Assembly (NCBI GenBank): GCA_030141605.1
Contig: JAQGDQ010002371.1
Span: forward strand, 310,001-374,000
Origin: Tubiluchus corallicola
Taxonomy: Eukaryota; Animalia; Priapulida
DNA length: 64,000 nt
Direction: 5' to 3'
Below, in pieces: positions 5,601 to 36,900 of the stretch. Every line of letters starts with the position of its first letter. Within the stretch, counting starts at the first letter, position 1. The position numbers were made by a program, and so were the translations under genes. Under the pieces are notes generated by a model, which had not been told where the DNA came from, did no database searches, and saw only the letters and a list, made by a program, of their open reading frames with translations.

Positions 5601-6481
5601 CCGTAATTGGTTTTCATCAAGGTGTGCCTACGCATAGGAAATCTGCCTGGTTATTAATTAATTTCACAATAGCAACATTTCTGGTTCACACGATAATAAA
5701 GTCGTGCTACTTTAATTGACAGCAGGAGTCTGAGTGCAATGACAATAAGAACTAATTAGTATTGCAATTATAACAGTTCCACCTCATTTTAAATGTCACA
5801 GTTAGCATCTATTAGATACAGATTAGTAATACAGCCACTGGGTTTGTGTTATGTAAACGCGTTACGTAGTAATTAATTATTTGTTTATTATTCTTTAATA
5901 GTAATGGTTATAGATATAATATCTGTATAGATGGATATAAGAGCATTTATTGAGTAAGTTCCATTGCTAGAACACCAGCTGTTTCATCACGCATCTTTGA
6001 CCATTACATACACCAACAGAAAGGTGTCTTCTCATTGGTGATTTTTTTCAGTTGGGCGCTGGGAAAAATTAAAGGAAAAACGCTATTTCTATTTTCGCTT
6101 TCTGCAACTCATGACTTATCAGCGTACTGTATACTGAACGTTTTATGTTTTCAAGATGTTAATATTCACTTCTTCGCGAGAAGTTATTTTTACTAGTTAC
6201 TGAGTTCGAAAAAAATGAGCTTAATTTCCTCTGATTCTTATAAATTAGCTTGAAACTCCAATTCAGGTCCTTTTAGATGGTGAGTTTTGGCAACCTCTTC
6301 CAAATACCTTTTGATACGTTGTTTTTATTATCAACGTCGGAGAAAGGGTCTTTTCCTTTAAAAACGTTAACATAAACACACAGCTATGCAAGAGATTTCT
6401 GTCTATAATTATGCCTATGATTTTTGTTATTACTATTTTAAATGTTGTAAGTATTAATTAATAAAACAACTTCACACTAAC

Positions 6482-6616
6482 CAGATGTGTCGTACTGTAT
6501 GTTTCCAACAAAAGCTGGACACGTTAGATATTGAGTGAACCCTTCTAAAGTAGGTGGCCAACAAAGAATGCCGTCAAAGTGCGCTGGACAGCGTCTTCTT
6601 CCGTTGTAGAAATACC
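6482..6616 (-). CDS. Class B1 (secretin-family) GPCR, hormone-binding ectodomain exon; CRF/DH44 receptor-like
   Basis: 135-nt phase 1-1 exon, ttcttcAG acceptor and GTtagt donor. It encodes YFYNGRRRCPAHFDGILCWPPTLEGFTQYLTCPAFVGNIQYDTS, with the C-x4-D-x3-CWP-x-T...CP motif. The CPAF...YDT tail resembles CRHR/DH44R. Downstream exons were not found and probably lie left of the window. Confidence 0.85.
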
Positions 6617-7024
6617 CTGAAGAAAAACGAAGAGAGACAATGATAATTTTGCTAGAGCCCAAAAAATGCGTGGGAAAATTCTGTGTTGCACGAACGACAT
6701 CTATGTCACACGCATGGGGTTATTATGACTTTCTTGTAATTTATTCCTAGACAGGGTAATAGCTCATTCCGGGCGCAAGCTAGTCTTGGGTGTTTACCTC
6801 GTAGAGTTCGAACAAGACTGGGACACCTCTACCGGTTCAGTAACTCATCTTAGAGGATTATCATTGATAGAGAGCCATGATCCGCTCACGCTACAAACAT
6901 CTCGTTGGGCAGTTGTCTGTGAGTGCTGGCTTCCGGCTTGCGGTGTAACAGCGCTATTTGACAAGAATGCGGTAAAATTCAACCATTGTGTCTGTGAGTG
7001 TCAACCAAGTGTGAATATTCTACG

Positions 7025-7921
7025 TAGACTAGAAGAAAATCCTGAAAAGGTGCTGCTTTAAAGTTGTAGGGGTGTTTTTTCTAAAACTGGGCAACATAGC
7101 CAGTCTTATCAATTTGAGTATCCTCTATCCGAAAAGGCTATTGTTAGCTTGAAAATTTATCGGAAAAGGGTCGAAAACGGAAAAAATAGCCATATTAACG
7201 AGAGCGATTACGACTTCAATTCCAGAGTAGTTGGACCTAAAAAATCCATTCCTGTTCCTGTTACTTTTATTTCAAAATGGCTGCTACGCAAAACGAAATT
7301 GTGCCGATCGTGCAATTTTATTAGCTGTACGTTTCATCTACAGTACAAAACAAAAAGCAAATTATTGCTGAATCTAGAAAATTGCTAGACTGCAAAAAAG
7401 ACGCCAAAGGCTTTTGAAACTGCTCATTAAGCAAAAAACAAAGTGTTCGTTGCCTCCCCGAAAAATTGCACAGTTCGCCTAAAACTTAAGAAACTTTGCG
7501 CAGTGTTAGAACCCATCAAGGTGTTTAATTTTGGATATGCTGTGAATAGAAAATTCTCCAATTTGGCAGCCATTTTCAAGATGACCGACAAGATAACGGC
7601 CGTTAGCATACATAGGCCATATCTTAAACAGGTAGAACAGATGAGATTATGATTTTGGTGTCTATAGGGCCTATATAGGTTTCCAAGGTTAAGAGATCCA
7701 CAGCTGATACTTAAATGCACCTTACTTATGACGTCCCTTACTTAGAATTTCAGGATGGTTGCCAAGATGGCTGTACAATAGCCGATTGTACAATACTTTA
7801 GCTATATCGCATGTTCTGCTTTACAGACCAAGGATTTAAAACCTTACTTGTTATTATTTTTTCATTATTATTGCTGTTGTTGTTGTTGTTGTTGCTATTG
7901 TTGTTGTTGTTGTTGTTGTTG

Positions 7922-8006
<85 letters not shown>

Positions 8007-8031
8007 CATTATCATCATCATTATCATTATT

Positions 8032-8066
<35 letters not shown>

Positions 8067-9783
8067 CATTATTATTTATATTGAACAAAATCACGAATAC
8101 ACATCACATATTCAATACAGAATCTGATAAAGAAGCCCGAAGATAAAAAAATCCTTGAAAGAAACAGTTTAGGTCAGAATTTATGGACCCTGATATAGAT
8201 AATACTGATAACCTCTAAAACAATCTGTCACGTTCACTAGTGCCGCCACACCACTGTATTTGGACCAGGCTGTGCAAACAAGTCTTGCTTGGACACATTT
8301 ACATTTGCCATAGTACCATTTGGCTGGCTGGCTGACAGCCATATTTAATAATTGCTTCAGTTCCACATGTCCGATGTGGTTCCCATGTCAAGTCAGTGGA
8401 TTTTCTCGGTGCAGTCAAATGGTGATGGTCAAGCTGGGGACAGTGATGAACGCTTGGCCTAACAGCATCCTGCCTCATATACCACATGTCTGGTGTACTC
8501 CAATAGTGCAGCAGGTCATCCCCGCAGATGTTGGAGAAAATGCCTCCATTGACATTGCCTTTCTTGTGAACAAGCCTTTATATGCTTTGTCAATTAGCAT
8601 CAAAACGTGCTTGCTGTGTCATACAAGAGTGTGACAAAACGTTCAAGCACAGGCGTGAGTTCAGTCAGCTGCTCAGCTCTAATCGTGTTTCTTAGCGATA
8701 CAAATCCTTCTGTTATCGCCTTAAACACTTGCCACGTAGGCCAAACCATCTTTTCCTTCTCTCTGTAAATGCTGAAACTTGGTCGGAACCAGTATTGGCA
8801 TGAAATACTGACGAAGCTGGTCTCTTTAAGTCCCATGCTATTCACAGTTTCAAAGGGCCAAAGATATTGCCTTTATAAACTAGTAACAGCTATTTCGTCA
8901 GCCAACGTGAAGATGGCGACCATATCGGATATTACCCTAAAGCCTTGACCTTCAAAGCCTACATATAAACAATAAAATCACCATTCTATTTGCTTCAGAA
9001 TATGCAATGTAGCTAATATATTAAACAAGTGGCTACAGGCACGAAATCTTAACAGAGGTTATATTATAGGCATTTTTAGGCATTAGACATGGATTCCTTG
9101 ACCTTGAAAACCTGTACTTAGACACCAAAATCGTCATCTAAACTATCTGGTCGGGCATCTTGAAAATGGCAACCATATTGGATATTTCTGATTGGTCTCA
9201 TATCCCAAATTAATCACCTTGATGGGTTCTAGCAGTGTGCAAAGTTTCATAACTTTTACGCAAAATTGGCAAGTTTAGGCAAATTATCTAGACTATATAA
9301 GTCGGAAACCGGGCGCACATTTTGTTTTTGTTTTTGCTTATTAAACTGTCTAAGTCGCCTTGTGTCTTTTTTGGGAGTCTTTTTTATATTCAGCAAGGTC
9401 GAATTAATAAAAATAATTTGCTTTTTGTTTTTATAACAAATCTTTAAATGAAATTGCATAGTTAGCATAATTTTGTTTTGGGCGACGGCCATTTTTGAAA
9501 TAAAGCTAAGAGAAACTAATTGCTTAGGCCCAGCAGCTTAAGCAAAATGTCATGATTGCATCTTAATGATAATGTTGTGGCAATGATTTTTTTAAATTTA
9601 TATTGTTTGTGCAAAAACATAGCGGTCATTTCTTTTTTATTTTGCATTTTGAGCCCTTTCCGCTAATTTTTCAAGCCGGCTAGGGTCTTTTTGATTTCAA
9701 ATTGACAAGACTGGCTATGCTGCCTAGTGCCCACTTAAAAAACGCCTCCAATGTTCCATTTTTCTGAAAAGTCGTCTAATCTA
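7025..9783 (-). mobile_element. Academ-like DNA transposon, internally deleted and non-autonomous
   Basis: Long imperfect TIRs starting TAGA and ending TCTA: 7025-7190 matches revcomp 9620-9783, and 7487-7700 matches revcomp 9090-9250. Near-identical 3-bp flanks acg/aca. The internal minus-strand relic 8180-8850 encodes LERFVTLLYD, WEPH and CKCVQARLVCTA, typical of the XPG-like/Cys-rich C-terminus of Academ proteins. Confidence 0.65.
7864..8074. repeat. Compound trinucleotide microsatellite (TTG)n-(TTA)n-(TCA/TTA)n
   Basis: Read directly. It explains the poly-L/N/I/Y ORFs in the track. Confidence 0.95.
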
Positions 9784-14765: not shown

Positions 14766-15570
14766 TGTAGTCCATTTTTGATAGTCTCTGTTTGATTTAG
14801 GATGACATTGGATTAAGTTGTATTGTGTTCTTTCCGGTTTTTAACAGCTGACGAATGTGACATTTTCGTTGGTTTTAGTACTATGTAAAGCAGTATGAAA
14901 AAGTTGAGTTTAATGGATTGAATTTGACTTGATGTGCAGTAGAGCGGTGGTTTAATGTAGATAACATTATTTGCTTTGCTGTTCAATTGGTGTAACTATT
15001 ATGGTATACTATTGGAATAAAAAATTATGGCGTAGTTTGGAATTGAGCGTTCTGGTTTTGTGTGGTGATGTTCGGAATATAATAATAATAATAAGACTTA
15101 CAGATTTCTCTGAATTGTGCCAGAAGGAAACAGATGCCACAGTGCAATAATACATTTTTCCTGCCTTGTGAAACGCGCCAAATACTCCCACCTACAAAGT
15201 CCAGTGAACTGAAGCCACGTAGCAGGAATAGTAAATTACGAATAGTAGCTGCTGATAACATAACCAACGACGAGTATCTAATATTAACTAAAACATGTTA
15301 ACAATGATTTAATAGTCTCAGTTATTTATTTCTCCTTTATTTATAATCAGCATGCTGCTGTATACAAAAACAAATAATAAATTTGACTGGATTGAATAAA
15401 TTTCAGTTTAAATTCATGATGAGTAATATCGTTTTCTAACAAGTTTTTGAAATTACAAGATTACGTAGTTAAGATAACAACAGAAAGTTTCCTATAAAAA
15501 CTCTAAAGCTTTGTCCACTCGTACAATCCAATATTGGTACCTACGTAACCACCTTATCCCTCTTGATCTT

Positions 15571-15960
15571 TTAGAAAAACATTGAAAAGTGACATTTTGC
15601 TCTCCACTGACTAAACCGTAACGTGTTGTACATGTAAATAACGACCAGAGGAAATCGTGTAGATATGTAACTCTCGGGGTCTCTTATAATCGTTTGTGCC
15701 ACGCTGCTTAAACCATTGTAGTACTTAATCAGGTTTCTGCCAAATCGAATGAAATCAGCAAATGTATTCCTATAAGGCATCGTTGTTCCAGGGATTTCTT
15801 GCCAGAGGCAGTTGTTTACCATTTGTGTCCAATTTCCACAGGTCGACCTAGCAAACGCTTGCTCAAGTTCGAGAGGTACCAGATCTCCACTGCCTTTGCA
15901 TCGTTTCATTTCTTGACACAACGCCCCGAGAAAGCGATTGCGTTGTTTAGTAGTCCAGAA
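15571..15960 (-). other. KEN (kinase-extension nuclease) domain
   Basis: Follows HPYFW directly: WTTKQRNRFL...W...YRNTFADFIRFGRNLIKYY...DPESYISTRFPLVVIYMY. Confidence 0.8.
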
Positions 15961-18900
15961 ATAAGGATGCGCTAGAACTTGTGCTATCGTTGGCCTGTCC
16001 ATAGGGTTTCGCTGCAACATCCAAATCACCATATCATTGTATTCCGCATTTATGAACCTCAGAAATGGCGTTCCCGCATTAACATTCGCCTCGCATTCTA
16101 AACAATTGCTACCAAATGGATGTTCTCCACCGGTTAGAATAAAGTACGAAAGCATTCCTGAGATGAAGACGTCCGATTTTGCACTGTAGTTGGCAACTGG
16201 CTCGGCGATTCTAATACATTCCGGGGGCTTCCAGTAGTTACTGTTCGACCACACTTCGTCTGAAACAGTTGAGTTGTCTGACTGAAGAAAAAGGCTAATT
16301 CCAGTGTCTGCCAACCGTAACATACCTGACTCGTCAAGTAGGACATTGCTAGGCTTCAAACCACCATGGAGTATAGGACCTGGCTTTTGTGAATGTAGAT
16401 AACTTACACCTCGGAAAAGCTGGTAAACCAAGATCTTGTTAAAATTCTCACTGCACGGTTTCTGCCTTATAGCTTGCAAATAGCTATATAAGTTATACTC
16501 ACACAACTCCATGGGCAAAAAACCTCCTTCTCTGGTTTCCAAAAGACCCTAATAAAAAATAAATTATTAAAATTTAGATTAAAATAAAAAACGCGTTAAG
16601 ATAAAAAAAACTTCTAACGCCACTTCTTACATCTATCTTCAGGATGTGTTGATCATTTAAGCTCCATAAACGAAATCTGGACACGATGTTTCGAAACTGT
16701 TGAAGTTTGTTCTTGCAAATGAACTTCAATGCTAACTCGGTTCCATCTTCATTAATGCCAAGCAAAACGCCACCTCCGTCAACTGATCTAAAAAAAGTTA
16801 ATTTTTTGCAGCTGTAATGTAACCGTTCCAGAAACTTCCTGAACATGTAGTGGTTCGAGATTTGATCTCAAAAAGATGCAGCTCAAAAATTATATTTACC
16901 TCTTTCCAATAAAGAACTCATCGGAGTAACAAAATCGTATGGTTCCCTTCGTGATTAGATCACTGGCATGCATTGAGGCTAACTTTCTAAATTTGTCATT
17001 CCAACGCTTGCTACGACTCTTCCAGTTTCCATTGGAAATGCTACCGTCACAATTGTGCAAGTCTTTCTGAAACAGCATTTCTCCAGGAGTGCTCATCTGT
17101 ACGCCTTGTCTTTGGCTAGCATGGACCAGGTTATCTACTGCAGGTTCTGTTGATATACTAATTAAGGAACTAGAGGACATGCAATCAGTATCGTCAAAAT
17201 CATTTTGTTGAATGTTATTGTACCTGTCACCGTTGTAGGTACTATTTGGTGGTCTGAGATTTCCTATATTCCATTGTTGCAAATCATACCCACGACCATA
17301 ACTACTTGTGGCTTGTGACATGGAAAGATTTACATCTGATGCGTGTGAAACAGCTTCATTAAATCCCACCGAATTTGTGCTGCTAGAAGAAGATGTGAAA
17401 TTGAATCCATTATCCTGCTGTGCAAATATTTCTGCGGGTGTAGACATCTGAGGAAGCACTTGAGCAGTTGGTTTCTGTTTGACTGTTGGACATTCGTTTT
17501 TCCTCATTTCAACCACAACGTCAGCATTTTTTGGTAAGTACACCAGATGATTCCTATTGGTTGAGGATAAAACACCTGGTTGACGAAATGGTTTTTCTGA
17601 TTGAGGCACGGTTATAGTTTCCTGCTGAAATTCAATTCCTGGTGGAGGAATTACCATAGGAGCATTGCCACTGGAAAGTGGCATGTGATTTTTGTTCCAA
17701 GGAGGCATTGAACCAGGAAAATTGCTCCAGAGTTGCTGAATAGCAACCTGAGGCAGTGTTGGAAAAAAACCAGGGGGTGGGGGCATCCTCCAGTATTGAA
17801 CAAAAGGCGGTGGTCTAACCATGTGATTAATACCTGGTGGACATGGGATTTGACATTGGTTACTAAGATTGGGATTGTCATGTGGCACTGTACTGACATT
17901 GCATCCCACAGAAGTGGAATTTGAGTTTAGCAATGTTTCCTGCCAGTTAAAATTACTTTGTGCAGCCAGAGGAACAAGAGACTGGATTATGTTGTGAGAA
18001 TTACTTTCGGAACATGTAGAACACCATTCTGGCCCAGACGGCAGATTCTGAATTTTTGAAGTGCAAGCCTGAAAGCTTTCGGATGGTTTGGATGATAACC
18101 CTGCTTCATTGGAAGATGTAGGTGTTGTATCGGCATTTCTAAGAACAATTTGACTGCCTGTGTTTTTGTTTGAGCAGTTTTCTTCACTGGTTGATAATTC
18201 TGGTGTTCTAACGTGATTTAGTGATGATTCCAACTCCCTATCTATCTGATCATAATTAAAACTTGAGCTGTCACTCAAATTTTGACTTTCATCACTATTT
18301 GTGTTTGTGAGTGATTTCCCAACACTTACAGTTCTTTCTGGAGATTGAACTGTAGATGTTTGCCCCGAAATATCAGACTCATTTGATTCTACTGAAAAAG
18401 ATTCATCAGATTGTGTCAAAGGTTGTATTAAGCAAGACTGTGAACGAGCAGTAACAACTTCTTGAATCCAATTGTTGATCATTCCCCTTTTTATTTCATC
18501 TCTAACGGGATCTTTTTCTGGTGAAACAGCCATATTGTTAACTGAAGAACGAGACAATATGTGTGACTCAGAACTTTTGAAAATTTTCAATAAAGGGCGT
18601 GACCAGTGATCATCAAAGCCATCAAGTGTTTTCCATACGTTGGTAATATCAGCTTGTGTAATGTTGGCATTATCATTTGCTATGTGAATTACATCAGATT
18701 GTATACCCTGGTTCACGTCAGATACGACTGGCATTTGCTGGTTCTCAAAAACCACTGTTTCTGAGGATTTTGGTGTAATTTCATTTTTTGGCGTGTCGGC
18801 TTCCACATGTTCACAGGAAATATTATTATTATTAACACTTATAATTTCAGTATTTTCTTCATATTTCACAATCCCATTATCTTGCTTGTCCTCTTCCAGT

Positions 18901-21900
18901 TTTTTTGCTTTTAATTGCCTTGGGAGGAACTCAGCACAATCGTCTTCAGTACCATTATCATTGTCATTCCACTGAACAACTTCAGATGGCAAATTGATTC
19001 TATATGACGTAGTATTTTGATTCACAGGTTCAATTTCATCTTTGTTGGAGATCAGGTGCAAGGTAAAAATAAAATCCAAACACAAAATTTCTTTTACGTT
19101 AGCTAATGTTAGTAATTGGTTACAACTGCATTCCTCATTGTCATGATCATGGTCGTTACCGCTTTCATTGTTTTCATTAGTGTTGAATAAGCTTTCCAAA
19201 ATTGACGTGTCATTACTGCTGCCATCTGTTAAAGGATCGTCGCCTTCTGATTCATCATTTGCAGTGTAATAACTTTCAGACGTCGATGTTGTAGATGTTG
19301 CATTTTCCACAATGACTTTATCAGCATGCTTTTCCTTTCTATCACAGAGATGATTCGCAAAGTCACTGCTTGTTGTAATCTGTGATGATTCGTTGTTTCT
19401 ATATGAATTATCGTCAGTGAAATGTTCCTTTTGCTGTAATTCACTGGAATGGTCTTCCGTCATTGTCTTATTAGTTTCTTCACTGCTGATGTGAACATTC
19501 TTATCTGAATTACTTGTAGTTTTTTTAAATGTCTTCTGAGGACTTACTGGTGCTGATTTTGCTACACATTTTCCGTTTGGCAAATCCAGTCTTTTTCTTG
19601 ATGGCACATCATTAACGTCATAGTACATGCCAACTGGTTGTTGCTGAGTTGTCTGCTCCCAAACGAAGAGTTGCTTGCTTCCATAATCAGAGTGTGTACG
19701 GTGTTTGGTAGGCGTTGTTTTGGTTTGAGTTTCTCGTGGCTTGCTTGATTCACCCTGCCCTTTTACTCCTGTTTTTGGTTTTATTACATTACCTGGTTTA
19801 ATTACTTTTGATACTTCATTCTGCGCTTTTTGTGGACTACATGTGCTCTTGTTATCCTGTGACATAGCTAAAAAGGTAGAAGATGGATGTTTTGCTTCTG
19901 CATGTTGCAAAGCAGTTGCGGTTTTCTCTGTAGCAGTCCACTTTATGAAATCCTCTATCTCGATTCTGCTTATTTTCACGTTTTTTGGTAGCAGGTAGTC
20001 AGAATCTGTAAAAGCAAGCCAAGGGTTTAATTCTTCTTCTGAATTTTTTATATGCTTTGTCTTTTTCTTTGCTTTTTCCACAACCTCAAATCTATCACCA
20101 ACATCAACCGGATAAGCAAAACCATGATTTAAACCCTTCGTGTAATCATCATAAATAGTTTCATCAGTAGATGATTTGGAATTTTTGTCCTTATCTCCCT
20201 TGAGCTTTTTATCTTCCCATAATTTCTCAACCTCAATTGTTCCGTCTTGGCCATGTTTAAGCTTACATTGAGATTGTTTTGGTTTCTTCTTGATTTTGGA
20301 CATCTTATCTGTGGCACTGTCTTCGTTATAAGGACTTGTTGTTTCTGATTTTTTGACATCTGGGGATTTATTTTTTGCCTCAAGCTGATTATGCGGCATT
20401 TCGTTTACGTCATCACTGTCTCCTTCATTTCCTAATCTTCCATTCGATCTAGTGGAGCTGTAACTGCCATCTAGTTTTTTTGAATTTTCTCGGTGACGTC
20501 GCTTTTTTTCACGCTTCCTGGCTTTTCTGGCCTTATCGCGCTCTTCGGATTTTAATAACTCGTTCTCATGAACAGCAGCCAATTGTTGCTCGACTTCGTT
20601 AAACTTTGCTTCAAAGGCTTCCCACAGCCTCTTAATGTGTGCCTTTTCATCTTCTTTGTGTGAAATGCAATACATTCGTTCAAAAGTCGTAAGAAATGGT
20701 TTCAACTTGTGATAGTTGTTCTGGAGCCACTTGAAACCTTCTGGTGCATCGCAGAGAGCAACTACTATCACGAGGCTGGTCACCAGGACTTGAAGATTTT
20801 CCATGTGACCCTTTGAGTATTTTACAGCTACTTTGATAAAAAATTCCAGTTTAGATTTGTCTATCAGGTAAGATGCAAAACGATTGTCTATCGTATTGTC
20901 TTCATTAAGGATCAGCTCTTTGCAGAATGTGCAAGATGCCAGAACAATTTCTTCTTGTGTCATGAACCTTTGGATGACCTGTATAGTAGCATCCAGTGTT
21001 TCGTATTCATCCATGTGATGTTTTACGTCTGGACTTCTTTTTAAAACGGCCGTCAGGCTTGGATAAAGATACTCCGTGTAAAACCGTGAAGCGCTGCGTG
21101 CTTTTGGATCTAACATTCTCTCTGTTCTATTCTGAAAATGTAAAGCTTTATAAGAAACGACTTAGACAAAAAAGTGTGAACTTCTCTTTGAAACTGCAGG
21201 CTGAAATGTTGTGGATGCGGATGACCACACTACTTTTCGCCATTCACCCAATGCAATATTTCATTTCAAACACACTGCAGCGGAGCCTACTTCTTTGCTT
21301 GTAGAAGACCGAAAGCAGCGTAGTGAACGACACTTCAGGCTGCAGTTCAAAGCAGAGGTTAAGTTTTAATTGACATAACTGTATGGCTTCGTTTGCAAAA
21401 GATAGGCAGTCATAGGTCTGATCTGAAATACTGGTGCGCCGTAAAGCAAGTAGCTCGTACGGAAAATGGAATTTACTACCAAGCAAGGACTATAACAAGT
21501 GACCAAGTGTTGAACAAATCAGAACGGATCTTTCTTCACTAGAGAAAGAAGAAAAGAGAAGGAGAAACATAGCGATGTGCAGCACAGTACCCACAGTTAA
21601 TTAGTGCTTAAAAATGTATTTTGTTCACTATTTTAAAAACAACTAAATGGTATTTGTTTTAGTTATACGTAAAAAACAACTAGCTAGTCCAAAACTGACA
21701 TCCACTTTTTCATTGTTTTATTTGTTTTTTCGACGCTGCGTCAGGAAATGATAACCAATTTGAGCATTTTTATGAATTAACCGCATTATTTTTGAAAAGC
21801 TAATTAGCTGCTTTTTAGTAATATAGAGACGTGTCTTAAAAGTGAAAGTTTAATAACCAACAAAATTTCGTTCTTACCTTAATGTAAACTGATATACATG

Positions 21901-24900
21901 TGTTACAATCTTTTGGACTGCATTTGCATTCTTTCCATAGCGTTTCCTTCATCTTTGGTACTTTACTGACCAATGCCAGGCAAACAGGGGTAATCCCAGC
22001 CTAAAAATATCAGAAACATAAATTGTGTATGCAAAAACTAATTACCCTTATCAATGACCAACATTCATATATGGCAAATGCAATGGCTACATACGACAAA
22101 TACACTTTTTTCTCATTTATAGCAAAACATTAAAACAAACAAGCAAATGTGCAAACAATTAAACAAACAAATAAACAAACATATATAAACAAATTACAAC
22201 CACAAATGAAAACAGATTTGGCATCACTTCTGACATTTGGGGCTAGGCGACCGAGATTTTAGCAGAGCCTCATAGGCTAGGTTAAAGTCTTTGGCCTGTT
22301 AATAGCGTTCATTATTGACACAAACGCAAATTATACGTGTAGTAAAAAAACTTGAAGCCATTGCGTGAGCTTGCGCGTTACAACAAAATTGGTAAGTACT
22401 TAGTACTAGTTATTGGTACCTTATTTTCCAGAAGAGCGTTACATTTAGCTTCAAGTAGCTTAAGCAGTACTGCTGGATAGCCGTTTTCTGCCGCTAGATG
22501 GAGTGCGGAATTACCATCGGCGTACCGCTGCAAGTTTTTAAATTTGTTCACATTGGGTCGTTTAAGAAGAAAATCAACACAGCTTTCCCAGCCTCTTTCA
22601 GCAGCTATAATGAGTACTGTTTCACCTAGCTAAAGCAAAATGTATGATTCAGAATTGTAGCTTGGTTGCTAACACATAGGTTTTCGTATCGACGTAAACA
22701 ATTGTTTGCAAGGTCTTGCTACATAATTACTGTTTATTTGTTTGCAACCTTACCAAGCAAGAATAGCATAAGGAAATTTAAACAAAACAAACGCCCTGCT
22801 ATTCATCATGCACTATTAAAAATTAATGAACAGCTAATAAATATTCGCGCTGGTGACTCAGCTAAAAGAGCCCATTTATAGCTAGTGCGGAAATGGCGCG
22901 CTGTCACTAAAACAATGAATTATTAACAAAAAGCGACTACATAAATTATATTTTGCAAATGCATGAGTGCAGAACTTTTCGTGAGTGACTGTACGTAAGC
23001 CATACAGGAAAACATAGGAAACTGTGGTAGTACGTCGACGATTATGGTGCCTTGACGATCTGCTCTTTTTGAATTACATGTAGTTAGTAGTGAAAATTTG
23101 TCCAATAATTAAAAATACTTTGTGTTATCCGAATATACTTTAAACATTCATTTACGCTCTTGCTTTTAATTGTCGAAATGTCTGATAATAACTTTTTGCT
23201 TCACTTCTTTGCCGAAGTCTTATTTCTTTGATTTCACTTCCCCTTTGCAGCACATGCTAAAACAAAGCCCGTTTCCTTACTTAGACTTTTTTATTCAGTT
23301 TAGCACTCTGCAAGCCAGGATCCAGCATTCATTGACAGATCTTACTTAATGTAGCTGCCGTGGTAAGACCAGAACCTATTTTATTGTGAAGGGTAATTCT
23401 CTAAGATATCTTTGTCAACATTGGTTCTACATATAATACGTCCTGCTTCAACAAAACAAATGATTCATGGGCAGCGTTGTAGATGAGACCGCCCAAAGGC
23501 AGTATTTCAGGTAGTCACGCACTTAGTTGCCGACCAAAATCAACGCCAAACACACGGGCAATTCTCCCTCAAAACACAACAGTGATTATTACACACACAG
23601 TAATCAATAAACAAATCCGCATGTTATCAGTAGTATCACTTTACAAGTGTATGATAAATGCTTGTGAAACTGAATCCATAACCTCTTATATGACAAGCAC
23701 ATCCGATATTACCATATAAGAAACTCTGGCCCATACACGAAAACAGTCCATTTATGGCATTCTAGTCCTATAATCTTAATTTTTTGTTTCTTTATATTAG
23801 TTCATAAAAACTGACGTCGATGGTAAATCACTATTTAATAAAAGAGAAGATAAAAGAAAAGATTAAAGTTTATTAAATACCACAACTAAATACGATGCAA
23901 CAGGGTTGCTCTCTTTTCTCGTTCGCCTGCCAATATCGTGTCTGCCAATATAGCCTGCTAATTCGCCTGCCAATAATCTAACCCATCAACATGAGCAATA
24001 GTGCTGCCCAGCATGCGTGCAACAATAGCAAAGCATATATTTCAAAGGTAGAGATGATGTTGTACCTTGGTTAGATATCAAAGGTGAAACGATGGCAAAT
24101 TAAAAAAAAACAATTATGCTAGGATGGAAGTCAACCGATATACCTAAAACGGAACCTGGGTATTGAAGACTTGAATATCCTTCACTTGTGGGTAATACTT
24201 TCTTTCATTGCCTGACACCTAGAACTTTTTTATTGAAACATGTAATAATACTTCGAATTTGATAGCTAGTTCTAGGAATGGAATTACGGGAATGGTTTAC
24301 CTTATTAGCGTAGCTAAAATCAATGTGGGGTTCATGGTTAATCAGCAGTGAAAAATTGGCCGCATTTCCATTCTTTGTAGCCATCATGATCGCGTTGGAA
24401 CCATCCTATAAAATGGAAAAAATGAAAAAAAACATTCTAGTAACAAATTTCATGTTAATTAAAAGAAATTTGTTGACTAACCAATAAAAATACGTGCTCG
24501 AGCAACTGTGTTACATAAAGGCCGAACAAAAGCGTGGACAGATAAGCGAACAATTAATTTCACAAAAACAAATCTATAAAGAAATTAACTAATGCATTAA
24601 TGAACGATCGACAAATAAATGATTAAAGAATTAACAATAGACAGAACATAACTCGCATAAACAATTGATAGAATGGCTAAACTTAAACAGCAAACAAATT
24701 AAAAAGTGAACCGACAAATCGCTGCCCAGCAGATGTTCCATTAAGAAGGTGAAAAAGTATACGAAAGCAAGAGTTGGGCAAACTATCAAATGAAAAAAGG
24801 ATAGACACAGACAGAAAAAAATGGCTAGACAAATATTCAAATTTCTTTTGCTGCCAAAATTAACTTACCAAAGACGTGGCATTTACGTCAGCTCCAGCTT

Positions 24901-27900
24901 TCAGCAATCTCTCAGTGATTTCTGGCCAGCTGTGTTTGCAAGAAACCAGTAAGGCTGTGGCTCCATCCTGTAATAAAATTTTGCAATATCTCTTGACTTT
25001 TTCGATAAAACTATTCAGCAGACACGTAGCCAGGGGGGAGCCTGAAAACTTCCCCTTCACTGAATTTAAAAAAAATTATGAATGTTTTGTTTCCTAGTTG
25101 TCCGATGGATCGTATTAAACAATTGAAGAATTAACGAATAAACAACATTTGATTTAATGTGCTAACATTTTTATTTGTTATGTGTATTTTCTCTTTCAAA
25201 TGCTTTTTGTGGTTAAACTTTTAAAATACTATTTATATGCTTCTTTCGCGAGAGCTTCTGAAAGCATGTGACAAACAACAGTTTCCTAAATTATGTTTAC
25301 TGTTGACAATAGGTGTTGTCATTCCAGTGTCTATAAGCACACCAGAAAGAACTTTCTCTGACTTACCTGTGCCTTATTTTCCGCGCCAATTTTCCTGTGC
25401 TATTTTTACCTGTACCATTCGTTTTTGTCTCAAAAAATTTGCTTAGCTTGAGTGCAACATTGAGTTAAAGATTTACGTTGCGTACTTCACTTTACTCAAG
25501 GCGTACCAACCTATGTTAACCCGCGTAGCTTGCGTGGTATAGTTTCAAATGTTTTACTCAAGACACTAAATTTGAATCATCTTTAAAAATTTGTCACTAT
25601 TGAACACATAATTTACGACAAGCAGTTATGAAATCTAGTTAATGACCGTAACTTGTTATGTGTGCCACAAAATTATTTATAAGAAAAAGTAACTCAAAAT
25701 AAATTTATATCTCTTGCGTAATTATGTAACTTTCGCAACATAAACTAAATAGTATAGAAGTTCAAACAGTAGCTCAGTTTTTATAGCACGCATAAATTCA
25801 TAACAATAACAAATAAAGTTATCGTTCTTACAGTTAATTTTTATGCCATTCTTTACTTATTTGTAGTAGATCCTACATGCACTTGGCGCGAAATTTGGTA
25901 CGGAATTACGGTACGATATTTTATCGTACTAGTACGATACGATTCGATTTTGTAGGTCCGGCACGGAATTATGGTACGGTATTTTTTAGAGGTACGAAGT
26001 GCGGTATTTTTCGTACCGTACCGTGCCGTACTGCCAGCCATGCCCACATGTACCTGAACAAAGACGAAATAGACATTGAAAATGTAATACAGGGGTTTGC
26101 AGACCTCAAAAAGGCACATTATTTTATAAGTTACAGTTACAAATAATTTTGTAATTTATTCTATTGTAATTACGATGAACTTTAAGTAAACTCTACCTTT
26201 AATAAAAATTGAAAACAAAACTTTACTTTTAATTATACATGGCGAACCCAATTTGTTTACGAGGTATGGGAGTGCAAACTGTATTAGACTACACAGTACA
26301 TCTATTAGTGACTACCTCATTCCCACTCCCATGGACTGAGCTCCGAAATTCAATTTAAGCATTGGACCAGATAGGTGTTACTGCCTCATTAAAGGGTGAG
26401 TACTACCTCTCGCAATGACCTAGGTAAATTGATAGATAAAACCACAGCTTGATGACCTGTAGAAGCGTTTTTCTCAGTTGGCCACAGATTGACGGGCCGA
26501 TTTGTCAGCCAAGCGAAAACCTCGAGCAGTGGCCAGTGAATGGATAGGAGGCGCCGATACAATATTCCTGCTGAGGAATTTATCTGTCATACTGCTTATG
26601 AATATTCAAATAAAAGTCTTAGTAAACTGCTCAGCCTTTTCTATTTAGAATAACCTTAAAATTGCAATGTCAAGCAAACAGGTGATTTTTATATTAGTTT
26701 GTTAACAAAGTCGATGTTAATATCTTAATACATGAGCTTAGTGACCAAGATTAAGCAAAATCATGGTTGGAGACTATTAACACCACCGCGTTCTGTGCGA
26801 TTGTATTCAAACTGTTTTCCTCTTAGAGGGACGATGCATTCACATCCGAATATGCAAAAATCATACCGGCATAGTATTACAGCTTAGAATATTAGAACCG
26901 ATAGTGATAATTGATAATTCCGCCATCACCATCCACATTAAGTAGGCGCTAGCATTGAGTATTGTAGACCAGCTTGAAAGTGCCAAACTGTATAAAAATC
27001 AACTGTTAGCTGAAAGAATGCAGTTTACGGTAGCAACATGTTTAGAGATACGAAGGGTCTACTTACGTCATTGAAGCTAGCGTTGACGCAACTCTTATCT
27101 TCTATGAGCTTTTCTACAGCTTTTACGTGGCCGACAGAAGCAGCGACTAATAATGTTGGATACGGAAAATCCTGCAAAATAAAAGAAATAAGAAAGCATG
27201 TCCGGGATTTCGCAAATTCACGGAGAGAACGTCGTTACGGTTCATTAAGTAACAAAAGATTCGTTATGGAACAGTATTATGTATCAAAGTAATACAGGGG
27301 TTGGTCTTGGTCTGTGGGTAGGCCCTGAAGACCAGACCCCAGATAGACCAGCCGTAGACCACAGACAGACCAACCAGATCTGTGACAAATGAGATTTCAG
27401 ATAAATCAGAAACCCCAGACTGATCAGCCACAAATTACACTACAGATATATTAGATTTCAAACAGATCAGTAAAATCAACCACATACCAGACCTCTGTCG
27501 ACCTTATAAGGACGTTATATTTTTAACAGCAACAACAACAACAAGAATAAACAACGGCTTCTACTAAAGTATAAAAACACCGTTGATTTGAAATTTGCAA
27601 ACAGGATTAACCAAAATGTAAGACGACTGAGAGACATGTAGTGCAGTTGATATCAAGAAACTTTTTCGATGTTTAGTAGATGAGTGTTCATACACACTAT
27701 AACTGTACAAAAATCACACGCTCAATAATTTTACTTTTTACGACAATTGTGGTTAAACGTACCCAAGGGAAAAAAGCTAAGGGTTAGAGCTAATATTAAC
27801 ACACTTGGCTATGACAGACCAAGATAATAATATTTATCTGACCTATCATAACAAAAAAACTAGCTGCTATAGCTACAAGTTACTGCGTTTCACAAGAATT

Positions 27901-28085
27901 ACCAAATTTTCAAAAGAAATAGTTCCTCTAGGGTCCAGTCGGTTTTCTTTCATTAATTCATCTAGGGCTAATCGAACATTCTCGGCTGTCACATCTACTT
28001 CTTTCTTATCCTTCTTCTTGCGAGTTCCGCATTCAGCGTCTTCAGCTTTCACTACAGGTGAGTTTTTTCTTTTTATTTCAGTCAT
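15571..28085 (-). CDS. RNase L-like protein: ankyrin repeats - long linker - pseudokinase - KEN RNase domain (~2063 aa, 9 exons)
   Basis: Exons 28085-27903, 27171-27067, 24967-24869, 24405-24301, 22629-22420, 22000-21878, 21131-16900, 16787-16631, 16548-15571. All are GT-AG with an open frame throughout. Ankyrin consensus in exons 2-6. IRE1/RNase L-type C-terminus: KSDVFISGMLSYFILTGGEHPFG, RPTIAQVLAHPYFWT, YRNTFADFIRFGRNL. Confidence 0.85.
15961..17024 (-). other. IRE1/RNase L-type pseudokinase domain (spans introns 7 and 8)
   Basis: LALK (beta3 Lys), MELCEYNL hinge, HGGLKPSNVLL (HRD degenerate), LADTG (DFG degenerate), WKPPE, GGEHPFG. Confidence 0.85.
25018..26268 (+). mobile_element. hAT transposon relic interrupted by younger insertions
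   Basis: hAT-like 5' end CAGACACGTAGCCAGGGGG. Dimerisation-domain halves LLKACDKQQFPKLCLLLTIGVVIPVSISTPERTFSDL (25250-25365) and MYLNKDEIDIENVIQGFADLKK (26048-26115). Confidence 0.55.
25876..26046 (-). mobile_element. MITE-like fragment rich in GTACG/CGTAC repeats
   Basis: Dense CGGTACG/CGTACCG units ending GCCGTACTGCCAGCCATG, inserted inside the hAT relic. Confidence 0.45.
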
Positions 28086-30938: not shown

Positions 30939-33900
30939 CAAGTATATAATACTTGTATGTTTAAGAACATAAAAGTACCAGAAAACAAACATCTTGGTTA
31001 TCATCACCGAGTTTTCTTCCTTTTGGTCAAGTAACAATCCAGCAAACAAAGATATGAGTGATTTAATTAGTCAGAATCAATAATTTGTGAATTTTTACAG
31101 ATCATGCTAACAATTAGTTCTATCAAGACATGTTTCTAGGTTTTTTTGATGACTCAGCCATTTTTAATAATTAAAGGTGTTTTTCCAGCATGTTTTTCAT
31201 GCGTGTACTATCTTACACATGCATTATGCAAGTACGTATCTCTTTAGACATTTTCCAAAGTTATGCAAAAGAATGAGTTTAAAACAATTTTTTAAAATAT
31301 TTACCAAATCCAGTATGTCATCGTCCAAAGGAATATTGGCACGTCGACAAAGGACTTTCAGCTCATTTTTCTCAATGTAGCCAGATTTGAATCCACTCCT
31401 AAAAGAACAATTTATACCAATCAAACTTTTATCTTAACAGATTTGCCGTCATTAACACGTACATATACTTGCTTGTGCCAAATGCTTGTGTTGCCTCGAC
31501 CGAACAATATGACTTTTTTGCACAAAATATCAAACACCAAAATACCAGTTTCTGGTGTAATGGTAAAAAGTTACTGCAAGGCTTATAATTAAAGCACACT
31601 TATCAACACTGTTTACTTTGGAATTTCAAACTTAATGCTTTCCTCTTACATAGTTGTAAACACTTATGAAAGTTCAACTCTATGGCTCATTTAATTAGCC
31701 TTGTTAGCCCATACTGCCCAGGCTTAATTACCTATAATTATCTGCATTTAAAAACTCCTTTTTCAAAGCATCTTTCTGCATTGAACACCACTGTTGTAGC
31801 ATTTTTTGAACACGATTCAGCAACCTTTCTGCATCATCATCTTTTCTGAAATGTATAAATCTATAAATTTAACTATATTAAATTTAATCATCCTATGCAA
31901 TATGCATAGGGAGATAAAAGATGTTCATTTTAAATTTGTGAGTTAAAAATTGCAGCTTCTGACACCAGTTTTATTGCATTTTACACAGACTACAATAATA
32001 TTATCTACATATAATATATGTGTTATATACAGACAGGATAATAATCTCGAATGCAAAAAATTCAAAAACTTTTCAGGCTATTTAATCTTAATAGCTGTTT
32101 CTCTAGACAACCTGATAATGTACCAACTTGAATTCAAAATATTGCTATCAGTGTGCAACTGGAAAAAGTACGAAAAGTAGGGTATGAATGAAACATACAT
32201 TTATTCACAGATGCCAAAAAAAATGTCTCATCAACTTAAGAGCACTAAGTGAACTTATACAGCTTGCTCAATAAGTGCTAAATGAGTCTCAGAAGCTTTT
32301 AACCATGTAAAATAAAACTAAATGTCTTTATGTATTTAATTTTCCATAATGCCTTAATTCAAATACACTGAAAAGGCCATAGCAAACTAACAAATTATCA
32401 ACAGTTGAATATTATTGAAACAATCATGTTCAAAATACAACTACATTTAACACAGTTCCAGATTATCTTGTACTTACTTATATGCAGTAGACCCTTGAGA
32501 AGTTGGCCCTTGTTTCTCCAAATGAGCTTTTAATGACAGCACAAGAGACGCTATTAAAAAATACAGCCAGGAACTTTAAAATATTGAAAAATCTTACCAG
32601 AAGGTAAAAAATAACAAAGTAACTTTAAATAAGTATGAGATGAAATAAAACTGTATGAATAGATACCAATTTAATTTCATTCACTAAAAAATGAAATTTG
32701 CAACAACACAATGTTTGATTTACGCTTTTGTAAAGATGAAATATTATGGTATTAAATTTTTAGAGTAAATGCAGTTTGCAGTAAATAACTTAGGCAGCAG
32801 AATCATAGATCTTTGTGAGTTGCATTCTAAGCTTGGATGATCCTTTCTTTAACACACAGACATGTCAACAAACTAGGCTATTACCATGCAAGCTTTAAAT
32901 TGTATTTACCCGGAAATTTGTCCTTGTGTAGCTCTACATATTTTACTACATATTCATCAACATCAACAATTTTGAAGCGATTGTTGAATACAACTATTAT
33001 GCTTCCAATGTCAAAATCCTGAGGTCCATAAAATTCAGGATTTTGCACTGATGATCCTGGCTTTTGAAGCCTTGTTCGTTCTAAAAATTTCCCTGAAATT
33101 TATTTAAATGGATTCAAGATAAAATGCTATTATGATGACATTGAAAAGTTTTTTACCTGATAGTAGAGACAACAGATATATGAATGAAAAACAAAATGTA
33201 CATAGTTGTAGTTGGATGTTTTAGCCTAAAAATGACTGTTTCACATTATTTTTCACATTCTAAGAGTGTGCATATAACTTACCTCCAAGAATTCCTGAGT
33301 TTCTCACAGGTGGTTCATATATTGTGACCATGTCATCAGCAAGTCGGTATGAAATAACGAACCTTCTGTTTTTGTCCTCTTGCTTGACTGTATCCTAATC
33401 CATGAAAATATTAATATTAATTCACAAAGATAGGGCAAAAAGTTGTTTTAACAACTAAATTCGAATATGTAACTCAAAAACAGTACGGCATGCATTTCTC
33501 GCTAAAATTTCTGAAGTCCAGATAAAAATGAATCTAATGACAACAAAAGAAATTAAGCACTATATCAGCAATATTACATTTATCAAATACGTACAACATA
33601 ACTGAAATGGTATAAAAGAACTTACCAGAATTGCAGCATAACGCAAGACATTATGGTCATTTTGCAACATCTTAACAACGTCTTTCTTGGGTGGTTGAGG
33701 TATAAGTGACAGACATGATTGCAAACTATCTTCCACTGAGCCGAAACCAGTGTAAGGTGGTACTTCCTAAAGAAAATGTGAAAAAAAAATCAGAAAAAAA
33801 TATGACTAAAAATTATTGAGGTTTTTATATCAGAACATTTTAATAATAATAATAATAATAATAATAATGCATTCTTAAATCAGGGAAATCAAAATCTCGC

Positions 33901-36900
33901 TAGATACACTTATAATGGTAATATGGATAGCTTAGTTAAAACACGTGAATTTTTCATATGAAAAATATATGTACAGAGCTGTTATTCAAAGAAATGAAAA
34001 TTGTGATGGTTGTAAATGTTTGTAAATTGAGAATGGCTTGTTTTGTGTACAGATATACAAATAATTTACTACCAAATACCTTCCAGTAATTTCGAATAGA
34101 GATTGATGTTCTTATAAAACAAAACTGCTAAACGATTGTCATTTTCATAAATGTAGAACTAATGTAAAATTACAATTGCTGATGTGTAGACAAATTATGC
34201 AAGGAATAGAAAACTATTAATATTAATCAAGTTACTATGGTCTAGTCCCTAGGCCATTTCTTACCCTAGAAAAATTGTTTATTTTTGTTGACTTTTTTCA
34301 GCAATAGACCTGGATTTTAATGTGTATCAAATAAAAGCCCTGTTAGATAGTTCTATCTTGGGCAAATATGGTAAAATGTGATAAATAGATAGCATACAAA
34401 ACAACAAATTCTATTGTTAATGCATTAGAAGAACATGCATTCCTGCTTCGTAATGGTATTATGTAGCACACATCTACCTTCTTCACTACACGTTTCTCTT
34501 GTCCGATGATCTTCTCTCTATCTATTGGTGTAAAATCTGAGATGTCAAAATGTGCTTTATAAAAATCACGAGTATATGCATCGCAGTCACAAATCAAGAA
34601 CCTAGTTAGGAAATATAATTTATGCCATTAAAAGAAGATTTCATTACGTTGTTCATTAAGTTATAGTAGTTCATTAATTATAGTTTCTCTGATGTATGCA
34701 TGTAACTACTTATATTAGATCATATCGTAGCGATGATCTAAGCAATATGATTGCAACAATAATTATTATTGTGCAGGTCTTCATTAAAACCCTTTCAAAA
34801 CTGCTCAACCAAAATGGTTACACGTAGCATTTTAAGAAAAAAAAAGAAAAGTGCGCACATACACAAACTTTCAATATACCAGGACATTCTCATTAACTTT
34901 AAAAACCCTTACTCAAAAAAAGACAGCTGGAGGTGTGGTTGTGTGTGGAAGTTTTAAAAATGCTGACATTACATTAGTGCATTTAGTCCTGAAGACACAA
35001 CCCACACCTTTAAATCAAAAAAGTCATGTATGGATTCACAACCATCCACCTTTAAATAGTTAGTGCAAAAAAGCCGGCCACTAACGAATGTAGGTAAAAA
35101 TGGCAACAGAAAAAATGGCACGGTAAAAATGGCACAGAATGAAAATCACACAGGAAAAAATGGCACACTTAGTAAAGTATGCGCTTAGGGTTAGGGTTAC
35201 AGTGGGGATAATTATTTTAGTTATTTTTACCTCTGCCAAAGAAGTTACTTTCAACACAGTTTGTTTGTTTGTTTGTCTGTTTATTTGGTTGTCTTTTGTC
35301 TGTTATGGTAATAAAAATATTACACAAAAACTATCTGACAGTTTTCCAAGAAACTCTGTGAACAAAAGTGGGCATAGGGTACTGAAGTTGGAATCTTTTC
35401 GTCGGTTCTTTTTTCTCAAAGCTTGACCGAACACCATATACAAAAAAACATTTGTGGAGTGCTTCATGGGGTCTTGGAGGGAGTGTTTAGTACTTCTTTT
35501 TTGTTATCTCCACTGGACACACAACTACGAGTTAGTTCCAGCTGCATTTTGAAAAATTCTGTCTTGTAAAACTGTGTACCACACTGCACCAGAAAGTCAC
35601 TTTCACACTGCACACTGTCTATACCATTGGCTTATTAGTGTGTATAGGCTTATAAGGTAATTTGGTATGTATATATTTGTCAGTCTATTACCATCGCCAA
35701 AATTAATGGTGAAAAGTTGGATAAACACCATGTGGAACACTCGTGCATTATTGACTATAAATCCATTTAATGAAAATTTTTTCCTGTTCCATTTTTACCT
35801 GAGCTATTTTTTCCTGCACCATTTTTTCCTGTGCCATTTTTACTGTGCCATTTTTACCCATGCCATTTTTACCGCATATTGGGTACTAACTAATGACTAT
35901 CTCGTTAAGTCTTTAAGAAGGAAGTTTCAGAAAAGGTGACAAAATAATAAACATTCTAGAAGATGATAGTGAACACTTTTCTGAAAAGACTAACTGTTTC
36001 ACGTCATTTTTTATTTTTCCTGATACTTTACAGGAACCATTATGAGGTTATAGGCCATATATAAACACATTATTTCATTTAACCTCCAAAAGCATAATTA
36101 CTTTCTGCCATAAATGACAAGAGAGTCCCCAATGCGAAAATCTTTTGGTGTGTACCACTCAGAAATGTCACTATCTGTCACCTCCATTGCTATGGTGGGA
36201 AACAATGCTGTAATTAGAATAAAGAAGTACATCAAAAACAAAAATTAGACACTGGTAATTAGTAATTTTAAGAAAACACTGAGATGTTTAAGCAACAAGT
36301 ATTGGCTTACATGGAAGTTTTCCTCTGTTTTTTGCAAGTTTTTGCCTTCGCATCAGAACTGGAAAAGGGTCCCTTCCATTATTTGCTGAATGTTGTTCTC
36401 TAATTTCTACTGTGTCATCAACTAAATAGTACTAAATAGAAAAGAACAATAAATAAGAAACAAGTAAAATTATATTAAATGACATTAAATGAATGCCCAC
36501 TAGTCCAAAGCAATTTTTGTTAAATCAAGATGCATTACATAGACAAAAACAACAAAATTTCTCTTGAATTTAATTAGGTACTACCTTACAGAACTATCAC
36601 ATGCATGCAACATTTTTTAATTAAGCTATATTGAAACTTATTAACTTACATGAAGAACACAAGGTCGTACTTCGCCAAACATGCTATCCCTATCATCCCA
36701 AACACAATAAAATCGTAAAACTTTTCTATCCAATTCCAGAAACTGACGAGTTTTATCAAATGTTGAGGGTGTTTTGTAGTTAGCAATAGCAGTTCTCTTT
36801 GCACGTGCTGTTGTATATGGATCATCTGGGATCAGTTCAGGATCATTGAGTTCAATGCCCTCACTTGCCATGAATTCCTGCAAAAGCCGCACTAATAAAA

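What the first reader, a model, noticed from the sequence alone, without database searches (positions are those of the whole stretch)
15571..28085. Giant RNase L-like gene (ankyrin - pseudokinase - KEN) in an apparently invertebrate genome
Seen: one intact 9-exon frame of about 2063 aa joining N-terminal ankyrin repeats to a C-terminal kinase-fold plus KEN module, with no signal peptide, luminal domain or transmembrane helix. Known: kinase+KEN occurs in IRE1 (a membrane protein) and in RNase L (ANK-pseudokinase-KEN, ~740 aa, the 2-5A effector of OAS). RNase L is usually described as vertebrate-restricted, although OAS genes occur in many invertebrates with no established effector. Inference: a member of a poorly described cytosolic ANK-PK-KEN family, either an early RNase L relative or a convergent assembly, and a candidate innate-immune or RNA-regulatory sensor nearly three times the size of RNase L.
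Basis: partly seen in the sequence, partly recalled or inferred. Interest (0 to 1): 0.9.

Follow-up and report, generated by a model that had tools for sequence, protein, structure and literature searches.

The report
Disarmed RNase L-like invertebrate scaffold protein
This animal gene is predicted to encode a 2,063-residue protein built from the same parts as the antiviral enzyme RNase L and shared with an unstudied insect protein family, but it lacks key catalytic residues, so it likely works as a non-cutting scaffold and may show that this design is far older than vertebrates.

Summary
Nine GT-AG exons (minus strand, 28085-15571) give one 2063-aa frame with ankyrin, kinase and KEN domains above Pfam cut-offs. 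Splicing is not confirmed by RNA. (1) It is no orphan: a separately folded ARM-like domain follows five ankyrin repeats, then a ~1150-aa low-complexity linker, and the same layout occurs in uncharacterised proteins of many insects. An insect-only profile of the ARM-like domain picks out exon 7 (E 4.5e-7), which ties the ankyrin half to the kinase half. (2) Both enzymes look dead: the catalytic HRD reads HGG (HGN in relatives), and the KEN histidine needed for cleavage is tyrosine; 0 of 15 aligned family members keep the R-N-x3-H site. So it is not RNase L and probably not a nuclease. Best reading: a pseudokinase/pseudonuclease scaffold, perhaps recruiting GIGYF through three PPG-hydrophobic motifs. 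Insect members escape Pfam's KEN model (0 of 16), so domain surveys would miss them. A 2023 paper mentions unnamed ankyrin-bearing proteins outside RNase L. Whether this family is RNase L's sister is untested: no RNase L sequence was available for a tree.

The parts
27903..28085 (-). Exon 1 (aa 1-61): start codon, basic N-terminal peptide
   Evidence: a basic N-terminus also opens Timema P0004
27067..27171 (-). Exon 2 (aa 62-96): ankyrin repeat 1
   Evidence: Pfam Ank E 0.026, below cut-off; collinear with insect ANK profile
24869..24967 (-). Exon 3 (aa 97-129): ankyrin repeat 2
   Evidence: Pfam Ank E 1.1e-05
24301..24405 (-). Exon 4 (aa 130-164): ankyrin repeat 3
   Evidence: Pfam Ank_2 E 0.018, below cut-off
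22420..22629 (-). Exon 5 (aa 165-234): ankyrin repeats 4-5
   Evidence: Pfam Ank E 1.8e-11
21878..22000 (-). Exon 6 (aa 235-275): ankyrin cap, link to helical domain
   Evidence: aligned to insect cap motif
16900..21131 (-). Exon 7 (aa 276-1686), 4232 bp, one open frame from the helical domain to the first kinase strand
   Evidence: 7 of 13 differences in run X1 synonymous, no indel listed
20532..21131 (-). ARM-like alpha-solenoid domain (aa 276-475), family marker, followed by a basic stretch
   Evidence: insect-only HMM E 4.5e-7; model pLDDT 78; ARM-type matches Z 12-13
17039..20459 (-). Low-complexity S/T/N/D/E/K-rich linker (about aa 500-1640), inferred disordered
   Evidence: composition; no Pfam family
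17634..17840 (-). Proline-rich patch with three PPG-hydrophobic motifs (aa 1373, 1394, 1438), candidate GYF-domain ligands
   Evidence: consensus from PMC10187677 passages
16900..17024 (-). Helix-plus-strand extension in front of the kinase N-lobe (about aa 1645-1686)
   Evidence: conserved in family; family profile matches pig RNase L across it, E 0.0099
16631..16787 (-). Exon 8 (aa 1686-1738): kinase N-lobe with beta-3 lysine K1707
15571..16548 (-). Exon 9 (aa 1739-2063): kinase C-lobe, KEN domain, stop
   Evidence: Pkinase E 1.1e-26, Ribonuc_2-5A E 9e-08; IRE1 and RNase L alignments
16360..16368 (-). Catalytic loop HGG in place of HRD (aa 1799-1801); DTG in place of DFG at 16308-16300
15721..15738 (-). 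KEN site R2009-N2010-x3-Y2014: histidine replaced by tyrosine
   Evidence: aligned to RNase L and IRE1 chains
15325..15341 (-). Two AATAAA hexamers about 230 nt past the stop, candidate polyadenylation signals

Best explanation
The gene is predicted to encode a cytosolic protein of five ankyrin repeats, an ARM-like helical domain, a long likely disordered linker, a kinase fold lacking the catalytic aspartate and a KEN fold lacking the catalytic histidine, and it most likely works as a non-catalytic scaffold in RNA regulation rather than as a nuclease. Shown: the domains, the broken motifs, and the same layout in insect proteins. Inferred: the pseudokinase still binds nucleotide (beta-3 lysine and the aspartate of DFG are kept) and acts as a conformational or dimer module; the dead KEN domain binds RNA or a partner without cutting; the ankyrin-ARM solenoid binds a protein partner or ligand. 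More speculative (about 0.3): the PPG-hydrophobic motifs in the linker recruit the GIGYF-4EHP translational repressor, so bound mRNAs would be silenced instead of cleaved.
For: Catalytic loop HG[NG] in 15 of 15 family rows against HRD in both comparison rows; H-G-N-x-K-P invariant in all 17 relatives of alignment A4, so the loss is old and the fold still constrained. KEN R-N-x3-H complete in 0 of 15 family rows but intact in the Xenia and fungal rows; R and H are required for KEN activity (PMC3710099 passages). Insect C-terminus still superposes on IRE1 kinase-RNase, Z 33.2, rmsd 2.8 over 349 residues. Ankyrins collinear with insects as one 188-aa match, 72.0 bits; helical domain found by an insect-only profile. 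Exon 7 differences are biased to synonymous, 7 of 13, p 0.008-0.028. Three PPG-hydrophobic motifs here (ZNF598 has three, PMC10187677 passage); an identical seven-residue version in the snail protein and P0010.
Against: No experiment and no transcript. PPG motifs occur in only 4 of 18 family proteins, and the shuffle test (1 of 20000) used a window chosen after the motifs were seen. The window protein keeps R2009 and N2010, and the snail protein keeps N and H, so some lineages may retain weak or complemented activity; Timema has a histidine two places further on that would fit the looser Rx4-6H pattern. The snail protein has no ankyrin or ARM-like match. The beta-3 lysine is not kept in 4 of 15 family rows (arginine in three sawfly/wasp rows, leucine in the snail).
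Confidence: 0.5

Rival explanations
1. A pseudoenzyme regulator: the dead kinase-KEN module pairs with an active relative (IRE1, or a cytosolic kinase-KEN of the Xenia type) and dampens or retargets its RNase, with ankyrin-ARM supplying the input.
For: The kinase-KEN fold is fully kept while catalysis is lost; active kinase-KEN relatives exist in animals (Xenia row); KEN enzymes act as dimers (established knowledge).
Against: No partner identified; no genome was held to look for IRE1 or paralogues. Does not explain the PPG motifs or the long linker.
Confidence: 0.2
2. An active RNase L-like immune effector: ankyrins bind 2-5A or another nucleotide messenger, the protein dimerises and cuts RNA, using a variant active site.
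For: Same domain order as RNase L; Foldseek ranks RNase L first for the full insect model (driven by architecture); the last 158 aa score higher to human RNase L (42.4 bits) than to IRE1 (31.0); OAS genes exist in many invertebrates (PMC6307210 passages).
Against: Catalytic histidine absent here, site further decayed in insects; ankyrins sit about 1400 aa from the kinase, whereas in RNase L a structured ANK-PK linker takes part in 2-5A binding (PMC4718504 passage); five repeats only; OASb did not activate RNase L in yeast (PMC10400998).
Confidence: 0.1
3. A signalling scaffold with no link to RNA: the KEN fold survives only as a structural cap of the pseudokinase, and the protein organises protein complexes through ankyrin, ARM and linker motifs.
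For: Insect KEN has drifted below Pfam detection (0 of 16) while kinase and ankyrins stay well conserved; 14 of 18 family proteins lack PPG motifs.
Against: The window and snail proteins keep a Pfam-level KEN; conserved basic stretch after the ARM-like domain and PPG motifs point to RNA biology, weakly.
Confidence: 0.15
4. The model joins two neighbouring genes: an ankyrin gene (exons 1-6) and a kinase-KEN gene (exons 7-9).
For: No RNA confirms junctions; snail and Diploptera relatives are recorded without ankyrins.
Against: Similarity to insect proteins runs across the exon 6/7 junction (aa 68-431 against P0010, E 1.8e-20); the helical domain and first kinase strand share one exon; 15 of 16 insect-type relatives carry ankyrins and kinase in one chain, two of them on contigs barely longer than the coding sequence (5690 and 4200 bp), as expected of transcripts (inference).
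Confidence: 0.04

Closest known systems
RNase L (jawed vertebrates; ANK-pseudokinase-KEN)
   Same: Cytosolic, same domain order, pseudokinase, KEN fold; KEN side most similar to RNase L among solved chains; probable shared extension in front of the N-lobe.
   Different: KEN histidine lost; five ankyrin repeats separated from the kinase by an ARM-like domain and about 1150 aa of linker; 2063 aa against about 700-740; found in insects and a non-insect invertebrate-type genome; no evidence for 2-5A binding.
IRE1 (membrane kinase-KEN of the unfolded protein response)
   Same: Kinase-KEN module; best whole-module sequence score (73.7 bits against 52 for RNase L) and best structural match for an insect member (Z 33.2).
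   Different: No signal peptide, luminal domain or membrane helix seen; HRD and KEN histidine lost; ankyrin-ARM N-terminus.
Uncharacterised insect ANK-kinase proteins (Timema, Periplaneta, sawflies, beetles, Apolygus; P0002-P0017) and snail P0018
   Same: Same ankyrin-ARM-linker-pseudokinase-KEN layout (insects), same HG[NG] loop; one side of a branch at 92/92 against Xenia and fungal rows.
   Different: Only 26-31% identical over kinase-KEN; window lies outside the insect clade (99/100); window keeps more of the KEN site; snail record lacks the N-terminal module.
ANK-bearing non-RNase L proteins mentioned by Chu et al. 2023 (PMC10400998)
   Same: The paper says several proteins outside RNase L also encode ANK repeats.
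   Different: They are unnamed in the text and read as independent gains; figure and supplement could not be seen, so overlap with this family is unknown. Their search was seeded on PF06479, which misses 16 of 16 insect-type members.
PAN3 (pseudokinase scaffold in mRNA decay)
   Same: Functional analogue: a dead kinase used in an mRNA-silencing complex (PMC4718504 passage).
   Different: Unrelated architecture; analogy only.

Membership tests
RNase L | ANK, kinase fold and KEN in one cytosolic chain in this order | tested here: met
   chain inferred from gene model and homologues, not from RNA
RNase L | Intact KEN active site (R-N-x3-H) | tested here: not met
   R2009, N2010 kept, histidine position is Y2014
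RNase L | Ankyrin array directly joined to the pseudokinase | tested here: not met
   about 1400 aa (ARM-like domain plus linker) intervene
RNase L | Pseudokinase (catalytically deficient kinase fold) | tested here: met
   HRD reads HGG, DFG reads DTG; sequence-level only
RNase L | 2-5A-binding residues in the ankyrins, activation by 2-5A | not testable with these tools
   no residue-level ankyrin alignment to RNase L obtained; generic ankyrins outrank RNase L for the family profile
RNase L | Nests in the RNase L clade of kinase-KEN trees | not tested
   no RNase L or animal IRE1 sequence was available to the tree scripts
IRE1 | Signal peptide, luminal domain, one transmembrane helix | tested here: not met
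   hydropathy maximum 1.86 lies in a soluble helical domain; polar N-terminus
IRE1 | Active kinase (HRD) and active KEN | tested here: not met
Insect-type ANK-ARM-pseudokinase-KEN family (unnamed) | Five collinear ankyrin repeats plus ARM-like domain | tested here: met
   insect-only profiles: 72.0 bits and 25.7 bits, E 4.5e-7, best of 1000 shuffles 8.0
Insect-type ANK-ARM-pseudokinase-KEN family (unnamed) | HG[NG]-x-KP catalytic loop and broken KEN site | tested here: met
Insect-type ANK-ARM-pseudokinase-KEN family (unnamed) | One clade in a kinase-KEN tree | tested here: inconclusive
   open fork with 20 rows; 92/92, unstarred, long branches, with 12 rows

The most novel reading that the evidence does not exclude
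This family is the invertebrate sister of RNase L: the ankyrin-kinase-KEN fusion arose once, in the common ancestor of insects, this animal and vertebrates. One copy kept its nuclease, shed the ARM domain and linker and became RNase L; the other became a disarmed RNA-silencing scaffold hidden in insect and other invertebrate genomes. Ankyrin gain would then predate jawed vertebrates by a long way, against the current model.
Probability: 0.25. Interest if true: 0.85.

Novelty: new variant of a known kind. Interest (0 to 1): 0.6.

Why it matters
The current account has RNase L arising just before jawed vertebrates when a kinase-KEN protein gained ankyrins, with other ANK fusions as scattered independent gains (PMC10400998). 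Here is one conserved ankyrin-ARM-pseudokinase-KEN family spanning several insect orders and a distant animal, with insect members that the standard KEN profile does not detect. It gives a concrete test of where RNase L came from, and it is a rare double pseudoenzyme (dead kinase, dead HEPN-type nuclease) kept over long times. Orthologues in Tribolium and cockroach make it open to RNAi.

Tried and rejected
No whole genome is held, so IRE1, OAS and cGLR genes could not be sought; none is among 128 window ORFs scanned. RNA: no RNA holder listed; run X1 crosses intron 7 unspliced, so it is DNA, and X2 touches only an intron repeat. Word search with the helical domain: 0 of 894 candidates. Metagenome scan: 79 loci, weak kinase matches (best E 2e-18), none extending through KEN and none IRE1-like at E 1e-12. 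Atlas: generic kinases for exon 9; only sub-0.9 ARM-type leads for the helical domain. Foldseek for the helical domain: 0 matches at E 0.001. The 49-aa exon 7 end alone found nothing in PDB. A profile of the N-lobe extension alone was not built, so its likeness to RNase L rests only. Dimer prediction for an insect kinase-KEN module: no answer. An insect mid-linker helical segment has no match in the window protein. No Rfam match in the window; no meaningful repeats in the gene. Rejected: transmembrane helix at aa 390-408 (part of the modelled solenoid); canonical IRE1; the 2080-aa acceptor as main form (inserts 17 aa into the glycine-loop region), though it is not excluded as a variant. Literature searches found no paper describing this family.
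Full report
Observation. Reading the minus strand gives nine exons from ATG at 28085 to TAA at 15571, all introns GT-AG and in phase, for 2063 aa. An alternative in-frame acceptor at 16838 gives 2080 aa. Pfam finds ankyrin repeats in exons 2-5 (above cut-off in 3 and 5), a kinase and the KEN domain in exon 9. Exon 7 is a 4232-bp open frame, about 1e-45 by chance. One other DNA run covers much of it; 7 of its 13 differences in exon 7 are synonymous against 21-26% expected (p 0.008-0.028), and no indel is listed there. That run may be the source sample, crosses intron 7 unspliced, and does not cover exon 9. No RNA run confirms splicing. Two AATAAA hexamers lie about 230 nt past the stop. Neighbours are an EFHC1-type gene, a PHLPP-type gene and a hormone-receptor-domain gene. 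One EFHC1 exon scores 80.9 bits to chain 8snb (a sea urchin entry, label recalled) and 75.5 or less to the chains named EF-hand domain containing 1: an animal, probably not a vertebrate; the phylum was not determined.

Relatives. Exon 9 found 4 proteins among 1179 candidates: one Xenia protein and three Timema proteins. A Timema kinase-KEN query found 19 among 4303 candidates: 16 insect-type proteins (14 named from stick insects, cockroaches, sawflies, beetles and a bug; 2 unnamed), a snail protein, a fungal kinase-KEN protein that I read as IRE1 from its motifs, and a dinoflagellate kinase. All insect and snail names say uncharacterised, hypothetical or kinase-domain protein. The window protein is 26-31% identical to the full-length ones over kinase-KEN, and similarity also runs over aa 68-431, across the exon 6/7 junction (E 1.8e-20 to P0010). 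Profiles built from 12 insect-type proteins without the window sequence gave two independent tests. The ankyrin profile matches aa 66-253 as one collinear 72.0-bit domain. The profile of the following helical region ranks exon 7 first of 1145 window ORFs (25.7 bits, E 4.5e-7; next 9.2), and the real segment scores 30.6 against a best of 8.0 in 1000 shuffles. Since that domain and the first kinase strand share exon 7, this links the two halves of the gene. The domain models as helices only (pLDDT 78) and matches many armadillo-type solenoids at Z 12-13, rmsd 3.4-6.9, with no family standing out; the tool warns that such Z values for helical repeats may mean a common arrangement only. A model of the Nicrophorus member superposes on IRE1 kinase-RNase with Z 33.2, rmsd 2.8 over 349 residues, so the insect C-terminus is KEN-fold, although Pfam's KEN model hits 0 of 16 insect-type members at E 0.05 and only the snail among 17. 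The snail record has no ankyrin or helical match.

Active sites. In an alignment of 15 family rows (window, snail, 13 insect-type; P0003, P0004 and P0008 left out as near-duplicates or truncated) and two comparison rows, the catalytic loop is HGG in the window and HGN in the other 14, against HRD in Xenia and the fungus. The window keeps the beta-3 lysine and the aspartate of DFG (DTG). In KEN the window has R2009 and N2010 but tyrosine where RNase L and IRE1 chains have the catalytic histidine; no family row has the full R-N-x3-H, both comparison rows do. Mutagenesis shows R and H are needed (PMC3710099, passages; H672A inactive in PMC10400998). Against a clean loss: the snail keeps N and H, and Timema has a histidine two places later.

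Relation to RNase L and IRE1. The evidence is split. Whole exon 9 scores higher to IRE1 (73.7 bits) than to RNase L (52); so do the snail protein and the Xenia module. The last 158 aa score higher to human RNase L (42.4) and pig RNase L (34.8) than to IRE1 (31.0), a modest margin. A family profile of the N-lobe with its preceding helix matches pig RNase L over positions 8-118 (E 0.0099), the only one of the 60 rows shown to include the extension; IRE1 is not among those 60 of 117, but IRE1 crystal constructs begin about where the extension ends. Trees lacked RNase L and animal IRE1. With 20 rows the deep fork is open and 13 insect-type rows exclude the window at 99/100; with 12 rows window, snail and insects stand against Xenia and the fungal row at 92/92, unstarred, on long branches.

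Mechanism. Best reading: a double pseudoenzyme scaffold. The nucleotide-binding role of the pseudokinase, RNA or partner binding by the dead KEN, and partner binding by the ankyrin-ARM solenoid are inferred. The linker holds three PPG-hydrophobic motifs, the consensus bound by GIGYF GYF domains (PMC10187677, passages); the snail protein and P0010 share an identical seven-residue version, P0016 has one more, and 14 of 18 family proteins have none. Recruitment of GIGYF-4EHP is thus a lead, perhaps lineage-specific. Rivals are a regulator of an active kinase-KEN partner, an RNA-independent scaffold, a true RNase L-like effector, and a mis-joined model; odds are in their sections.

Known work. PMC10400998 (read: parts 1-2 of 6 and passages; figures not held; supplement unreadable) places RNase L's origin before jawed vertebrates and says several proteins outside RNase L carry independently gained ankyrins; these may include members of this family, which I could not check. 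Its searches were seeded on PF06479. PMC6307210 (passages) found no RNase L in twelve invertebrates with OAS. PMC3710099 (passages) lists KEN fused to kinase with ankyrins without naming this family. PMC4718504, PMC12922763 and PMC9334734 were seen as passages only. Searches found no description of an ankyrin-ARM-pseudokinase-pseudo-KEN family; the library lacks most subscription papers. Earlier scan notes: none by sequence; five on other architectures by words, not used.

Verdict. Real, conserved and apparently undescribed as a family; a new variant of the kinase-KEN kind, not a member of RNase L or IRE1. Interest 0.6: it makes the origin of RNase L's architecture testable and offers insect models, but it is probably not the missing invertebrate 2-5A nuclease, and its taxonomic range and tree position remain open.

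Noticed in passing
window 32884-40954, minus strand: EFHC1/Rib72-type gene: three DM10 domain exons above Pfam cut-off, upstream of the finding on the same strand.
   Followed up: partly
window 41949-56582, plus strand: PHLPP-type gene: PHLPP RA domain (E 9.7e-22) and leucine-rich repeats, head to head with the EFHC1-type gene.
   Followed up: no
window 3693-6719, minus strand: Two exons with hormone receptor (HRM) domain matches, probably one or two class B GPCR genes.
   Followed up: no
window 43933-46949, plus strand: Broken frames inside a PHLPP intron that look by eye like remnants of a LINE-type retroelement; no Pfam match at E 0.001.
   Followed up: no
window 7782-8146: Long AAT/ATT-type triplet repeat tract.
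   Followed up: no
window 25140-26300 (intron 2 of the gene): Multi-copy repeats: many diverged contigs pile up here, including a short element with internal repeats at 25897-25985.
   Followed up: no
protein P0001 (Xenia): Two kinase domains, one followed by a KEN with intact R-N-x3-H, recorded in one chain with a TROVE (Ro60-like) domain; either a mis-joined model or a kinase-KEN-Ro60 fusion worth a look.
   Followed up: no
proteins P0002-P0004 (Timema), mid-linker: A ubiquitin-tail-like LRLRGG motif in the linker of all three Timema proteins, absent from the other relatives and the window protein.
   Followed up: partly
insect relatives, about aa 550-655 of P0014: A conserved, confidently modelled helical segment in the middle of the insect linker with no match in the window or snail proteins.
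   Followed up: partly
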